From positions 160,001-224,000 of the forward strand of contig CAVSHB010000004.1 in NCBI GenBank assembly GCA_963727775.1: a stretch of 64,000 nt of DNA, read 5' to 3'. Positions 27,001 through 39,000 of the stretch are shown piece after piece. The stretch comes from an uncultured Nitrospiraceae bacterium. GTDB lineage: Bacteria > Nitrospirota > Thermodesulfovibrionia > Thermodesulfovibrionales > SM23-35. Each line of letters opens with the position of its first letter. Within the stretch, counting starts at the first letter, position 1. The position numbers were made by a program.

Positions 27001-30000
27001 CCCTTTCTGGATGATCAACCTCACTATGGGTCTGACAAAAATGTCCCTTATTAAATTCTATTGGGTATCACAGATAGGAATGCTTCCCGGAACTATGGTT
27101 TTTGTTAACGCCGGAAAGGAACTTGCAAAGATTGATTCTCTCAAGGGAATTTCCTCTCCAGGCCTGATCATTTCATTTGCACTCATCGGCATATTTCCCA
27201 TAGCGGTAAAGAAACTGGTGGCTTTATACCGTTCCAGGATGAAGAAGACCGCTGGCGATGCCGGAAATATTTCCTGAGGGCATCCATGGGAAGGTATGAA
27301 GAAATAACAGACGCGCTACAAATCCTCGGATTATATGAATCCGCAACAGTAAAGGAAATCAAGAACAAGTATCGGGAATTGCTCAAAGAATGGCACCCTG
27401 ACTTATGTAAGGAAAATGAACATATTAGAAAAGAAAGAACTATTGAGATCATCAATGCGCACAGAACAATAATGGATTATTGTGAGCAATATAGATTTTC
27501 GTTCTCCAGGGAAGAAGTTGAAAAATATGTATCTCCTGAAGAACTTTGGGCAAAACAATTTGGAAAAGACCCAATATGGGGAAACTATCAAGATGATGGA
27601 TAAGATAACTATATTTGATAAATATGCCGAAGAATATGATAGATGGTTTGATACGAATTCATTGGTGTATCAATCAGAAGTGCGGGCAGTGAGAATGCTG
27701 CTGCCTCAAAATGGCCAGGGGGTTGAAATAGGAGCTGGTACAGGAAGGTTTTCAGTTCCATTGGGAATAACACTCGGCGTTGAACCTTCAAGAGCAATGG
27801 CCGAAATTGCAAGAAGCAGAGGAATGACGGTATATGATTCAAAAGCAGAGAATCTACCATTTGATGATAATACATTTGATTTTGTATTAATGGTCACAAC
27901 AATCTGCTTTCTTGAAGATCCGTTGCAAGCAATAAAGGAAATCAGAAGGATTCTTTGTCCTTCGGGAAAGCTCATCATCGGTATGCTTGACAAAGATAGT
28001 CCTCCTGGAAAGGAGTCTCTCTCTAAAAAGAAGAACAGCAAGTTTTATCAGTATGCCAATTTTTATTCGGTCAACCGTGTCTTGAACTGGCTTAAGATAT
28101 CAGGATACAATCATATTCATGTTCTCCAAACAATCTTTAAGAAACCGGAAGAAATAATTGTCTTAGAGCCGATAAGAGAGGGATATGGAGAGGGATTGTT
28201 TGTTGTAATTTCTGCTCAAAAAGGAAAGACAATTTGAAAAGGTTAGTTCAGTTGGTAAGGTACCGTCATCGCTTAATCGTCAGATGGCCTACCCGTCATC
28301 GAAGAAATCAATTAATATCTCGAAGAACTTTCTACAAAATCCTGATACAGGGAGTTGGATTTGATATCGCGTTCCCAATTATTGAGGCAGTTTCCATCCC
28401 TGCAGTTTTCAATTCATTAACTAATTGGTCCGCCTGGGATTCAGGAACCGACAGGAGAAGACCCCCCGATGTCTGTGGATCAAAGAGTAATTCCGCCTCT
28501 TTCTCTGACAACTTTGTAATTATTTCCAGACGTCCTTCTGATAATTTCCTGTTTGCCTTATTGCTGCCGGTGGTTTCACCTTTACGATACATCTCAAGAG
28601 AATGAGGATAAAACGGCAGTTCATTATAGAAAAGATCTATTTGTACTCCACTTCCCGTTGCCATCTCCAATGAATGTCCAACAATGCCGAACCCCGTTAT
28701 ATCGGTACATGCATGGATGTCGAAACTCAGTGCTGTATCAAGAGCCTTTTTATTAAGGGCTGCTACGCGAGGCAGGATAACTTCCAGTTCTTTGAAGGAT
28801 AGTTTCCCCGATCTACACGCATTAAACAATACACCGGTGCCCAAAGGTTTTGTGAGGACCAAGACATCCCCTTCCTGAACTGCGCAGTTTGTCAGTATTT
28901 TATCGGGATGAACGACTCCCGTAACCGCAAGGCCGTACTTGGGCTCATTGTCATCTACAGAATGTCCGCCGGCCATAGAAGCACCGGCTTCGTTGACTTT
29001 GTCATTCCCGCCACGGAGTATTTCTTTCAAAACACTCTTGTCAAGTTTCTTGGGGGGAAACATGACGAGGTTCAAGGCAGTGAGAGGTTTGCCCCCCATG
29101 GCATAGATGTCCGAGAGAGAATTCGCTGCAGCGATTTGTCCAAACCAATACGGATCATCCACCGGCGGTGTAATAAAATCGACGGTACTGATAAAGGCCA
29201 TCTCGTCTGATAGGCGGTACACTGCCGCATCGTCACAAGTATTGAACCCGACAAGCAGGTTCGGATCGTTAGAAGCGCTTAGTGCCTTGAGTGCTTCCGC
29301 CAGATCTGACGGACCTATTTTAGCTGCTCAGCCGCATGTCCGGGAGAGTCCTGTAAGAGTTCTTTTCTTGAAGAGACGCATTTTCTTTTTTTACTTTGGG
29401 CTTTCAGTCGCTTTGATGTCCAATATTTCTTTTCTATCGATGCCCTATGATATATAGAAAATATCTATTTATAGCATTGCATTCAAGAAAAGGATATATT
29501 GCCAGTTGGGCAGCCAATATTGACTGCAATGGAAGGTCTTAAGCTACAATCACACAATTTCGAGAATTTCTGAAGGTACACCGCACCTCTCAAAGCATGT
29601 CCGATGTGCAAACTTGATGAGGGATTCGATATATTTTCAGCGCCCCAAATTTATGCCGAAACTGCCTTTTCCGTCTCTTTTAGCCACAAAATCCTTGACC
29701 CGTTGATTACTGAGGCATTGACGGATTCAATCAATTCGTTGGGAGATATGTGAAACTTCTCTTTTTCAACAAACGGGCTGAATGACAATTTTGTCTTTGC
29801 CTTTGCCGCCTTATTGATTTCAGATTCCGTAGGTCTTTTTATAACAGCTCCCATGGCCTTTGCCAATGCGATGAAAATATCCCTGTGGCTCTTTGATTCT
29901 CCCTGAGGTTCAATAACTTTCGGAAGATATTTCAGCCTTCCGGCATAATCTATTATCGTGCCGGCGGACTCAAGGAAGGTTGCCGAAGGCAGGACAACAT

Positions 30001-36000: not shown

Positions 36001-39000
36001 TTGTCAGAGAGTCAAAATCAACGGGCAGATCAAGATATTTCTCGGGGATACACCCCCCCGATGGACCCCCGGTCTGGACCGCCTTGATTTTCTTACCGCC
36101 TATGATACCGCCGCCGATATCGAACACTATCTCCCGCAGGGTTATCCCCATTGGGACTTCAACAAGTCCCGTGTTGTTGACTTTACCTGCCAGAGAAAAA
36201 ACCTTTGTCCCGGATGACCCGGGAGTGCCGATGCCGAGGAACCAATCCGCGCCTTTCTCGATAATCGGGGGAACACACGCATAGGTCTCGACGTTATTCA
36301 GATTCGCAGGATATCCCCACGGTCCCCCGCCGGGTTCCGAAACCCTCGGCGGTCTTGCGTGAGGGAAACCCCTTCTGCCTTCGATTGAGGCAACCAAGGC
36401 CGTGGCCTCTCCGCATACAAAAGCGCCTGCCCCTTCTTTGATATTAACCGTAAAATCAAATCCGGTGCCGAGGATGTTTTCTCCCAATAACCCGATTTCT
36501 TCTGCCTGTTTAATGGCGTTTTTCAATGTTTTGATGGCCAACGGATATTCATGTCTGACGTAGATAAACCCATAGTGTGCATCCACTGCGTATGCGCAGA
36601 TAAGCATTCCCTCAAGAAGGCTGTGGGGGTCGCCTTCCATTATCGACCTGTCCATAAATGCGCCGGGGTCGCCTTCGTCTCCATTTGCAATAACTATTTT
36701 GATGTCTCCGGGCGCTTTTCTGGTATGCGCCCATTTTACGCCTGCCGGGAATCCGGCGCCCCCTCTCCCTCTCAGGTTGGCATTTCTTACCTCTTCAAGG
36801 ACCTGCTCGGGCATCATGGATGAAAACATTTTTTCAACAGCTTTATACCCGCCGGCCGCTATATAATGACGGATGTCGAAAGGGTCGATGTTCCCGGTAT
36901 TCCTGAGCGCGATCTTCACCTGCTTTGCATAAAAAGGAACTTCTTCCAGTAAGGCCTTCGGCGCTTCAAGTATGGAATCTCTGTATATCAGTTCTCTCAA
37001 CGGCTGTCCGGTTGAGTAAGTGGAAGAAATAATCTCATGTGCTTTTTCAGCTTGGACCTTTTGATAGAAAAATCCATACGGCTCAATCTGTATAATGGGC
37101 CCCTTCTGACACAGCCCCTGACAACCGGTCTTCACAATATATACCTGCGCATTGGAATTTGAAGCCTCTTCTTCCAGCGCCTGAACGACTTTTTGAGAGC
37201 CCAGAGTGCTGCACGGCAGGCCGCAGCAGACCTTCAAAGCATTTCTACCGGTCCTGAACATCTCCCCGCCAAGGAGTTCTCTGAGGCCGCTTAGCGCCTT
37301 TATATTGTCTAATCTATTCATAAATGCTGCATCCCTTTTAGCTGCTTTTCATATAACGATATTAATCTTCTTTGATCGATCTGATTAATACCTCCAACTT
37401 TTTTTCGCCTATTATTTCCCCGACAACCTCATCGTTGACCGTTGCGACAGGCGCAAGGCCGCAGCACCCCACGCACCCTACCGTCTCAAGCGTCATAGCG
37501 CGATCGGCTGTCGTCTCTCCCATGCGTATTCCAAACTCGGTTTCGAGCGCATTAAGGACCTTCTTAGACCCCCTGACATAACAGGCTGTGCCGAGACATA
37601 CCTTCACAACCTTCTTTCCGCGAGGTTTAAAGTGGAACATTTTGTAAAAACTTGCAACACTGTATATTTCAGATAAGGGGATACTCAGGTTTTGAGAGAG
37701 CTTTCTCAATACGTCTTCCGGCAGATACCCGTTATCTTCCTGGATCCGGTGGAGTACATGAATAAGTATCCCTCTCTTCCTGTCCTGCTCGCCGATAATT
37801 CCTCCAACTTCGCCTATCTGCTCAGCAATGTCGATCTCATCCAATTTCATAGACCCTCCATAAGTAGCTGCGACACGAACTTTTTCGGGGTCGGCACGCA
37901 ATAATTCAGCGCACCTAATAGCCGCCGCTACACTAATAAATCCCTATATGCGGTTTTGCCACCCGCTCAATATCCCGCCTTGCGGCCATATCCATCAATA
38001 CCCTCTCCGCGCCGAACTTGCCGGGTTCATATTTTCTCAGTTTCAACGCCTCCCTTGCTTTATCTATAAAATCAAGGGCAAGCGCCAATATCTTCTCGGG
38101 GTCCGGTTCAAAATGCAGCGAGCCCCTGAATCTCTCGAACCATACGTCGGTCATTATCTTCGTCACTTCCTTGCTCGCCCCTACGGGTGATTCTCCCCCG
38201 AAGATTACGGGAAACCCCGAGGCCGCGAAATAACACCCTATCGCAACTGCTTTTTCGGACATCCACTCGGGCGCGATACCTACGGCAGGCATGCCGCCTA
38301 TCTCATCGGAGAGGCCTCCTTCTTCGGCCATCGCAGTCGCTATCGTCAATATCCTCGAATTATCCACACAAGAACCGACGTGCAAGATCGGCGGTATCCC
38401 TATGGCCTCACATACCTCCCTTAAACCTGGTCCTGCATTTTCAAGTGCCATCTCGGGCGTCAGAAAGCCCGCGGTACCGCATGCGGCTGATCCGCAGCCT
38501 GTCGACACGATGAGCACGTCATTCCTAATCAGCTCAGTCGCAAGAAAACGATGAAGTCCCTGGGATGGCACCCTCGGGTTATCGCATCCCGCAAGGCCGA
38601 CCACACCCCGAATCCTGCCTGCAATTATTGCATCGTTAAGGGGTCTGAAGGACGCCCTCCATCTCCCGCCCTGCATATATTCTATGTATTCCTGGGAAAA
38701 CCCGGCGATGACCGGGACTTTATCAGTAATGTAACTTCCCTCTTTTTTCCTGTTGGAATAATTATCGATAGCGGTCCTTACGATCTGTCTCGCTATATCC
38801 TTTGCCCTGTGTTCGTCATATTCTATATGGATGGCGCCCTGAATCTTGGCTTTATAGGAAGTAGTGATCACCTTTGTGTGAAACTTCTTCGAAAGCTCGG
38901 TCAACGCGGGCATGATACACTGTACATCCACGGTTATCGCATCAACAAGCCCGGTCATGATCGCAAGCTCCTGATTTGTAAAACCACCTGCGGTAGGAAT

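What a model noticed while it worked through the whole genome (the two positions that open the first line are those of the whole stretch)
29651..37850. BfuABC (HydABC-like) module with CBS-pair-fused BfuB co-encoded with CODH/ACS in Thermodesulfovibrionia
Directly behind cooS of the CODH/ACS operon lies a HydC-HydB-(Fe-S)-HydA-like module with no catalytic site of its own. Its flavoprotein subunit, duplicated here (g03223, g03224), carries a C-terminal CBS pair. This points to an adenylate-regulated, probably electron-bifurcating NAD/ferredoxin partner of the Wood-Ljungdahl CODH.
Evidence so far: Domains in calls 15 and 36 (47-48% identity to Thermotoga HydB). The A subunit has TTASL where formate dehydrogenase has its catalytic Cys/Sec motif and scores best as NuoG. 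Of 17 Nitrospirota loci, 12 have the module directly behind cooS and 9 have BfuB of CBS-fused length (779-794 aa); one also has a separate CBS gene.
(Added by a program. Inside this text positions count along the whole contig: contig position 160,001 is position 1 of the stretch shown here. "Call 12" and the like, gene names such as g00115 and contig names such as C1 are that model's own, and its searches are not shown. The text may have been shortened before it was handed on; [...] marks where a part breaks off. The agent that wrote the report below was given it as the finding of a first reader that could run no searches.)

Follow-up and report, generated by a model that had tools for sequence, protein, structure and literature searches.

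The report
NADP-type electron splitter beside CODH/ACS
Right behind the genes for the enzyme that makes or splits acetyl-CoA from CO2 sits a flavin and iron-sulfur module of the electron-splitting (Bfu) family, with an extra flavin-free subunit, a nucleotide-sensing tail and a pocket shaped for NADPH rather than NADH, which suggests that this ancient carbon-fixing step can draw part of its electrons from NADPH instead of only from ferredoxin.

Summary
Observation confirmed: cooS is followed by bfuC, two bfuB copies each ending in a CBS pair, a 205-aa Fe-S gene (D) and a bfuA without catalytic site. All BfuBC cofactor ligands and published bifurcation marks are kept.

Three corrections. (1) The nucleotide pocket looks NADP-type: the Glu that binds the adenine ribose of NADH is Ala here, Ala/Ser in 52 of 62 relatives, and Ser in the NADP-only T. 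kivui HydB. (2) The constant part is D, a flavin-free copy of the BfuB arm (236 of 301 class genomes); the CBS tail is optional (about half). (3) A paralogue with B fused to D sits beside pyruvate:ferredoxin oxidoreductase.

The module tracks cooS (224 of 235 D-bearing genomes have it) and lies inside an acs operon in a second phylum. The duplication is real. Best reading (0.55): an NADP(H)/ferredoxin bifurcating partner of CODH/ACS. No activity, CODH contact or CBS ligand is shown. The nearest published idea is the predicted Codh-Bfu, whose defining features this fails. The scan noted this pairing twice before on other genomes.

The parts
37362..37850 (-). bfuC (HydC/NuoE-like), [2Fe-2S] cluster C1 (C85, C90, C126, C130)
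   Evidence: PF01257 E 6e-47; cysteines; ATG at 37850 behind a GGAGG
34988..37321 (-). bfuB1, 777 aa: B5, FMN, B1, Zn-type B2 site, B3/B4, helical linker, CBS pair; NADP-type pocket (Ala306)
   Evidence: groups with other first copies in the tree
32594..34948 (-). bfuB2, 784 aa: same domains; Ala313 at the adenine-ribose Glu position; CBS pair at about residues 650-775
32370..32558 (.). 189-bp repeated insertion between bfuB2 and D; not part of the enzyme
   Evidence: skipped in relatives' contigs from runs X1-X3; three more full-length copies at 87% in the genome
31731..32348 (-). D: flavin-free copy of the BfuB C-terminal arm (B1-like [4Fe-4S], Cys/His/Cys/Cys site, 2x[4Fe-4S])
   Evidence: 30% identical to BfuB2 462-630; 15 Cys and H116 invariant in 31 of 31; the 11 best fold matches are BfuB chains
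29651..31705 (-). bfuA, 684 aa: NuoG/FdhF-like with five Fe-S sites and an empty molybdopterin-type domain
37933..39942 (-). cooS, Ni-CODH of the acs operon, the proposed partner
   Evidence: TIGR01702 over cut-off
40002..45496 (-). acsE, acsD, acsC, acsB; acsB and acsD each carry a frameshift in this assembly

Best explanation
A four-subunit Bfu-family module (C, B, D, A) that couples the CO2/CO step of CODH/ACS to NADP(H) and ferredoxin at once. BfuBC holds the FMN-B1-C1 bifurcation site and binds NADP(H). The B3/B4 arm with BfuC handles ferredoxin. BfuA is an Fe-S wire with no catalytic site. D is an extra three-cluster wire on the complex and the likeliest adapter toward CODH (or PFOR in the paralogue). 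For CO2 fixation it would merge NADPH and reduced ferredoxin (mean about -440 mV) to make CO for ACS; during acetyl-CoA oxidation it would run the other way. The CBS pair is an optional adenosyl-nucleotide sensor on the moving arm. Shown: gene anatomy, ligands, motifs, linkage, co-occurrence. Inferred: bifurcation (about 0.8), NADP preference (about 0.7), functional service to CODH/ACS (about 0.75), a physical complex with CODH (about 0.45), CBS regulation (about 0.5).
For: Bifurcation marks: B1, B3, B4, B5 and C1 ligands and the B2-site Cys466/His553/Cys559/Cys564 are present; Losey's Ala/Met, Phe and GGPSG marks are present. NADP: Glu-274 of C. saccharolyticus NfnB binds the adenine ribose of NADH and aligns to Ala313. 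Five other solved BfuB chains aligned here have Glu and only T. kivui HydB has Ser; that enzyme uses NADP and not NAD. Ala/Ser occurs in 52 of 62 scored module copies, while 62 of 69 other BfuB have Glu. Link to CODH: directly behind cooS in 12 of 17 loci. Among 300 class genomes 224 have both D and cooS, 11 D only, 33 cooS only, 32 neither. Genus g28 has ACS in 15 of 15, cooS in 0 of 15, D in 1 of 15. In G472 (second phylum) the order is cooC-C-B-D-A-cooS-acsB with bfuA overlapping cooS by 4 nt, Ser in the pocket, and its BfuB is sister to this clade. D belongs to the complex: it is fused to BfuB in 11 of 12 second loci, and a D-BfuA model scored 0.73 against a best control of 0.02 (mark reached by 116 of 157 solved complexes and 2 of 215 mismatched pairs; runs agree in at least 98% of contacts; partner pLDDT 86), though probably by likeness to the solved B-A contact.
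Against: No activity, complex or expression data. Contact with CODH was not modelled. 33 of 257 cooS-bearing genomes have no D match, and in G003 and G116 an NfnAB-like pair follows cooS instead, so CODH can work through free ferredoxin. 3 of 17 loci have no cooS within the fetched flank and 2 have genes in between. 10 of 62 copies keep Glu. The NADP call rests on one characterised Ser enzyme and one structural contact; Ala is untested. The second published hint (GDEGDPG) is also in T. maritima HydB, an NADH enzyme, so it is not diagnostic. The genomes counted are kin, not independent. acsB and acsD are frameshifted in this assembly.
Confidence: 0.55

Rival explanations
1. A free-standing NADP(H)/ferredoxin module. 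It is co-regulated with CODH and PFOR because both need or make reduced ferredoxin, but it meets them only through soluble ferredoxin. Its mid-potential port belongs to another enzyme (hydrogenase, formate dehydrogenase) or to a second BfuB, making it a transhydrogenase in the place of NfnAB.
For: An NfnAB-like pair takes the place behind cooS in G003 and G116 and flanks the module in L004, L006, L007, L008 and L148. The paralogue sits by porCAB. 3 of 10 multi-copy loci pair a Glu-type with a Ser-type BfuB. The genome has group 3b-like and Mvh-like hydrogenases.
Against: Most loci have a single BfuB. No hydrogenase or FDH gene was seen next to the module in the loci annotated. The window's FDH has its own BfuBC next to fhs. 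The module is missing in most genomes that lack cooS (32 of 43). bfuA overlaps cooS in G472.
Confidence: 0.25
2. A non-bifurcating CO:NADP+ oxidoreductase. D plays the CooF role and BfuB is a simple NADP(H) diaphorase, so electrons run from CODH through D and A to NADP+ with no ferredoxin.
For: CO to NADP+ is downhill without coupling (potentials). No cooF lies in this operon, whereas the second cooS of the genome has a CooF-like and an FNOR-like neighbour.
Against: Every published sequence mark that separates bifurcating from non-bifurcating beta subunits is on the bifurcating side, and B3/B4, B5 and the B2 His are conserved in relatives. It could not drive CO2 reduction well.
Confidence: 0.12
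3. The detached head of a complex I lacking NuoEFG (Nuo-Bfu type), passing electrons to menaquinone.
For: BfuA scores best as NuoG. The genome has a second nuo operon without nuoEFG. Schut places Nuo-Bfu in Nitrospirae.
Against: Nuo-Bfu genes lie inside the nuo cluster, whereas these lie by cooS or por. The presence pattern follows cooS. The genome also has a complete complex I with its own NuoEFG.
Confidence: 0.06

Closest known systems
Codh-Bfu, predicted Type 2 Bfu (Schut et al. 2022, PMC9304861; abstract, parts of sections 4-6 and a term search of the supplement text seen)
   Same: BfuABC encoded with a Ni-CODH; CO proposed as third substrate; uncharacterised.
   Different: Four sequences, Firmicutes only, CODH genes between bfuB and bfuA, BfuA without A3 and A5, NAD assumed, no ACS link described, 'CBS' found 0 times in text and supplement. 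Here: ACS-linked CODH, five BfuA clusters, NADP-type pocket, subunit D, CBS tail.
Acetomicrobium mobile NiFe-HydABCSL (Type 3 Bfu, PDB 7t2r)
   Same: Best sequence match of BfuB; BfuA is a catalytically empty wire with the active site on separate subunits.
   Different: Partner is a NiFe hydrogenase; Glu in the pocket; fifth B2 ligand Cys476 (Ala here, mostly Thr in relatives); no D or CBS.
Thermoanaerobacter kivui HydABC (PDB 8a6t; PMC8578170, passages and first part of section 18 seen)
   Same: NADP-only bifurcating BfuB with Ser at the adenine-ribose position; best fold match of D.
   Different: H-cluster in HydA; no D, CBS or CODH link.
Por-Bfu, predicted (Schut et al. 2022)
   Same: BfuABC next to porABCD, like the B-D fusion paralogue found here.
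   Different: Described as Type 2, mainly in Chloroflexi and syntrophic Proteobacteria; no B-D fusion described.
Adenylate-binding CBS pairs (MJ1225, PDB 3kh5; 4fry; 2rc3)
   Same: Best PDB matches of the tail; TERD, RHLP and T/S-x-R-D motifs kept in relatives.
   Different: Those are stand-alone CBS proteins. Their bound ligands (AMP/ADP/ATP, NAD) are recalled, not read from a call. No fusion to a BfuB was found in the searches run.

Membership tests
Bfu family | BfuB with FMN domain, SLBB, B1 and 2x[4Fe-4S] domains; BfuC present | tested here: met
   Pfam domains in both copies and in bfuC; SLBB matches but below its curated cut-off
Bfu family | B2-site ligands, including the conserved His | tested here: met
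   C466, H553, C559, C564 align with A. mobile C438, H525, C531, C536; the fifth Cys is Ala, which leaves the four ligands of the Zn form
Bfu family | B5 and C1 [2Fe-2S] ligands | tested here: met
   C39/C44/C74/C78 in BfuB2; C85/C90/C126/C130 in BfuC
Bfu family | Losey marks of bifurcating beta subunits (A/E232, M234, Phe for the Nqo1 Tyr, GGPSG) | tested here: met
   the Phe was mapped by motif, because the paper's number 367 did not fit the alignment
Bfu family | BfuA homologue with [2Fe-2S] and 2x[4Fe-4S] | tested here: met
Bfu family | Coupled reduction of NAD(P)+ and ferredoxin | not testable with these tools
   needs an enzyme assay
Bfu family | NAD(H) as the nucleotide (Schut's general statement) | tested here: inconclusive
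   Sequence points to NADP; T. kivui shows that NADP-type members exist
Codh-Bfu (Type 2) | BfuA lacks A3 and A5 | tested here: not met
   H97/C101/C104/C110 and C227/C230/C234/C262 are invariant in 26 of 26, so Type 3; the assignment of cluster names to motifs is mine
Codh-Bfu (Type 2) | CODH genes lie between bfuB and bfuA | tested here: not met
   cooS lies before bfuC here and after bfuA in G472
Codh-Bfu (Type 2) | BfuB in clade 49 | not tested
   No clade-49 reference sequences were in my tree
Formate dehydrogenase (Fdh-Bfu) | Catalytic Cys/Sec and C-terminal molybdopterin-binding domain | tested here: not met
   TTASL against TCARV; no such C-terminal Pfam domain
[FeFe]-hydrogenase HydABC | H-cluster domain in HydA | tested here: not met
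   Hydrogenase models match only residues 5-228
Nuo-Bfu | bfuABC inside the nuo gene cluster | tested here: not met
   Both nuo clusters lie elsewhere in the genome
Adenylate-binding CBS pair | Two CBS motifs with conserved T-x-x-D and R/H phosphate-binding residues | tested here: met
   TERD and RH invariant in 22 of 22, second Asp in 21 of 22; confident fold; the role of these residues is recalled
Adenylate-binding CBS pair | Ligand binding that changes activity | not testable with these tools
   needs binding and kinetic data

The most novel reading that the evidence does not exclude
An asymmetric complex in which D, a flavin-free copy of the BfuB arm, occupies the B-site of one BfuA and plugs into CODH, while a second BfuA carries BfuBC. 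The whole would be an NADPH-plus-ferredoxin confurcating CO2 reductase wired to acetyl-CoA synthase. It would halve the reduced ferredoxin needed for the carbonyl branch, be switched by adenylate state through the CBS pair, be tuned by swapping NAD-type and NADP-type BfuB paralogues, and be reused for pyruvate synthase.
Probability: 0.2. Interest if true: 0.87.

Novelty: new variant of a known kind. Interest (0 to 1): 0.66.

Why it matters
Energy budgets of the Wood-Ljungdahl pathway count CODH as a pure ferredoxin enzyme. With the potentials in Schut's Table 1, NADPH plus ferredoxin average -440 mV and sustain a CO/CO2 ratio near 0.002, about fifty times more than NADH plus ferredoxin. An NADP-linked bifurcating CODH/ACS would halve the ferredoxin cost of making CO, or let acetyl-CoA oxidation yield both NADPH and reduced ferredoxin. 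The D gene that marks the module is in about three quarters of the sampled genomes of a common sediment and subsurface class. It gives the predicted CODH-coupled bifurcation a concrete gene set to test, and offers a ligand-sensing domain on a bifurcating flavoprotein, for which my searches found no report.

Tried and rejected
Assembly artefact for the duplication: rejected.

FDH or hydrogenase as BfuA: rejected.

GDEGDPG as an NADP marker: not used, since T. maritima HydB has it too.

CooS termini as a docking mark for the module: the two module-less CooS keep the same ends, so no signal.

(0 of 301 with the D profile at E 1e-42) was meant to sample Desulfobacterota, but its handles overlap those, so both sampled the same phylum. 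Desulfobacterota and other phyla were not searched. In one search, 156 of 401 genomes matched, nearly all through ordinary BfuB; one (G472) had a clear stand-alone D, and two short-frame hits (L232, L233) were split BfuB. The metagenome scan with the Ammonifex D-like protein gave one useful short contig (L171, D followed by bfuA); the Ammonifex neighbourhood itself was not seen.

No RNA holder listed. Promoter and terminator scans were at chance level. No D-CooS or BfuA-CooS model was made; the one complex job went to D-BfuA.

Literature: eight searches showed no paper describing this module. In one search none of the 13 papers held 'CBS domain'. Passages of PMC9469722, PMC8671834, PMC6560083 and bioRxiv 10.64898/2026.06.25.734504 added nothing. 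Morina et al. 2011 (E. coli NuoF Glu183 and NADPH) was seen only as a title in a reference list; its content is recalled. Subscription papers, such as the T. kivui structure paper, and the figures and tree panels of Schut's supplement were not visible and may bear on novelty.
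Full report
1. The observation. On the minus strand the window reads acsE, acsD, acsC, acsB, cooS, then bfuC (37362-37850), bfuB1 (34988-37321), bfuB2 (32594-34948), a 205-aa Fe-S gene that I call D (31731-32348) and bfuA (29651-31705). Both BfuB carry the N-terminal [2Fe-2S] domain, the FMN domain, the B1 region, two [4Fe-4S] motifs and two CBS stretches. BfuA has TTASL where two solved FDH chains have TCARV, and no H-cluster. The genome tool does not name the window's class; its closest named relatives are Nitrospirota, several labelled Thermodesulfovibrionia or Thermodesulfovibrionales.

2. The duplication is real. The copies are 80% identical as proteins; their ends differ (60-75% DNA identity) while the centre has identical runs up to 440 bp. 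Ten of 20 loci from the same family hold two or three full copies. In a tree of 98 trimmed BfuB cores (98 of 130 unique sequences; every second outgroup row left out), B1 groups with other first copies and B2 with other second copies. The pair is therefore older than this genome, and the identical centre is best read as gene conversion (inference). Contigs of about 93% identity from another sample span the junction (two runs of one sample).

3. It has the anatomy of a bifurcating Bfu core. Schut et al. 2022 (PMC9304861; abstract, section 4 part 1, section 5 part 2, section 6 part 1 and a term search of the supplement seen) define the family by BfuBC cofactors. All ligands are present: B5, B1, B3, B4, C1, and at the B2 site C466, H553, C559 and C564. 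The fifth ligand of A. mobile is Ala here and mostly Thr in relatives, which leaves the four ligands of the Zn form described in PMC12018979 (passages). The marks of Losey et al. (PMC7311640, passages) are all on the bifurcating side. BfuA keeps five cluster motifs in 26 of 26 aligned sequences, which makes it Type 3 in Schut's scheme; the predicted Codh-Bfu is Type 2.

4. The pocket points to NADP, not NAD. In C. saccharolyticus NfnB, Glu-274 hydrogen-bonds the adenine ribose of NADH (PMC11829005, passages), the ribose that carries the extra phosphate in NADP. That Glu aligns with Ala313 of BfuB2. Of six solved BfuB chains whose alignments I read, five have Glu and T. kivui HydB has Ser; that enzyme bifurcates with NADP+ (20.8 U/mg) and not NAD+ (PMC8578170, first part of section 18). 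Among module copies, 52 of 62 scored have Ala or Ser and 10 have Glu, mostly with Met at a second site; 62 of 69 other BfuB have Glu. Among 120 listed CBS-fused homologues, 98 have Ala/Ser, 20 Glu and 2 could not be scored. Against: only one Ser enzyme is characterised in what I read, Ala is untested, and the other published hint, GDEGDPG (PMC9431212, passages), also occurs in T. maritima. That changing the matching Glu in E. coli NuoF admits NADPH is recalled; I saw only the title.

5. D is the constant fourth subunit. It is 30% identical to BfuB residues 462-630. Its 15 cysteines and the His are invariant in 31 of 31 sequences, and its model's eleven best fold matches are all BfuB chains. 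It is a flavin-free copy of the BfuB arm. It lies between bfuB and bfuA in 17 of 17 loci and matches in 236 of 301 class genomes. It forms a small family: 33 clusters at E up to 1e-30, including Ammonifex proteins. In 11 of 12 second loci fetched, D is fused to the end of a BfuB that has two extra [4Fe-4S] motifs in place of the CBS pair. A D-BfuA model scored 0.73 against a best control of 0.02; the mark was reached by 116 of 157 solved complexes and 2 of 215 mismatched pairs, the runs agree in at least 98% of contacts and the partner pLDDT is 86. The interface joins D's B1-like bundle to BfuA residues around the A1 cluster. A1-to-B1 is the known BfuA-BfuB electron contact, so the pass is probably likeness to solved structures. 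It does suggest that D keeps that docking face, and since Bfu enzymes are dimers or tetramers of ABC, one BfuA could carry D and another BfuBC (speculation).

6. The link to CODH. Of 300 class genomes other than the window's, 224 have both D and a Ni-CODH, 11 D only, 33 CODH only and 32 neither (match lists copied by hand, totals checked; kin are not independent; many genomes are fragmented). Genus g28 has ACS in 15 of 15, CODH in 0 of 15 and D in 1 of 15, so the module follows cooS rather than acsB. In G472, a complete 2.0-Mb genome from the phylum sample of a Clostridiaceae genome, the order is cooC-bfuC-bfuB-D-bfuA-cooS-acsB-acsC, bfuA overlaps cooS by four bases, the pocket has Ser, there is no CBS, and its BfuB is sister to this clade with support 1.0 in a midpoint-rooted tree. 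Against exclusivity: the B-D fusion loci are followed by por genes (porC, porA and porB confirmed in L140, porC in L131, similar gene sizes in most of the others). In G003 and G116 an NfnAB-like pair follows cooS and D is not found. Three of the 17 loci show no cooS within the flank.

7. The CBS pair. It is a two-motif domain behind a conserved helical linker, closest to MJ1225, 4fry and 2rc3, with TERD and RH invariant in 22 of 22. The linker plus CBS matches in 125 of 301 class genomes, mostly in frames of about 770-820 codons and a few as weak stand-alone hits: about half of the D-bearing genomes. It is scattered over the tree. It is an optional accessory, placed on the arm that meets ferredoxin; AMP, ADP, ATP or a pyridine nucleotide are all possible ligands (recalled family knowledge).

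8. Genome context. The genome has dsrA and rnfC, a separate FDH with its own BfuBC next to fhs, NfnAB-like genes, group 3b-like and Mvh-like hydrogenases, a complete complex I, a second one without nuoEFG, and a second cooS with CooF-like and FNOR-like neighbours (83 selected proteins of the 195 called in 12 regions). So FDH and complex I do not lack heads of their own, though the headless complex keeps the Nuo rival alive.

9. Mechanism. Most likely the module couples CO2/CO at CODH to NADP(H) and ferredoxin through FMN-B1-C1, with BfuA and D as wires. With Schut's potentials, NADPH plus ferredoxin average -440 mV, enough for a CO/CO2 ratio of 0.002, against 0.00004 for NADH plus ferredoxin; ACS consumes CO directly, so this is plausible and gives a reason for NADP. 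Confidence 0.55. Rivals: a free module linked by soluble ferredoxin (0.25), a plain CO:NADP+ diaphorase (0.12), a complex I head (0.06).

10. Novelty. It is a Bfu member by every sequence test. It works like the predicted Codh-Bfu but fails two of its defining features. Eight literature searches showed no description of an ACS-linked, NADP-type module, of subunit D or of a CBS-fused BfuB; subscription papers and supplement figures were not visible. The scan noted the pairing twice on other genomes: e1-2081353 also proposed NADPH and three phyla (I confirmed two), and e1-2572544 proposed NADH. These notes are not independent support; my NADP reading was written down before I saw them. Verdict: a new variant of a known kind, interest 0.66.

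Noticed in passing
window 40445-40447 and 43845-43847: acsB and acsD are each frameshifted against an intact relative; assembly error or real breakage not decided.
   Followed up: partly
window 32370-32558: 189-bp insertion between bfuB2 and D, absent from relatives' contigs, with three more full-length copies in the genome; looks like a small mobile element.
   Followed up: partly
window 39931-40001: Short inverted-repeat element between acsB and cooS, with two weaker copies elsewhere in the genome and many related pieces in metagenome contigs.
   Followed up: partly
L131, L132, L134-L142: Paralogous module with a 900-aa BfuB-D fusion before bfuA and, where checked, por genes: a possible Por-Bfu of this class.
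   Followed up: partly
L151-L155 (genus g28) and genus g39: Genomes with ACS but no Ni-CODH match: 15 of 15 in g28, and four listed g39 genomes without cooS, one of which has only a weak ACS match. How their ACS gets CO is open.
   Followed up: partly
L165:2297-6888 (own genome): folD, a 673-aa GltD/NfnB-like gene, a 227-aa gene and metF in a row: a possible NADPH-linked methylene-THF reductase module.
   Followed up: no
L164:4858-17581 (own genome): A complex I operon without nuoEFG stands back to back with NfnAB-like genes.
   Followed up: no
L159:6527-13860 (own genome): Fdh-Bfu next to fhs; its BfuB also has Ala in the nucleotide pocket, and the FDH alpha gene is split in the ORF call, as a Sec codon would cause.
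   Followed up: partly
window 28332-29222: selD-like gene behind bfuA; its frame seems to start further upstream than the ORF call; a second selD lies on C1.
   Followed up: no
L113, L122, L125: Tandem bfuB pairs with one Glu-type and one Ser-type pocket, a possible NAD/NADP pair.
   Followed up: partly
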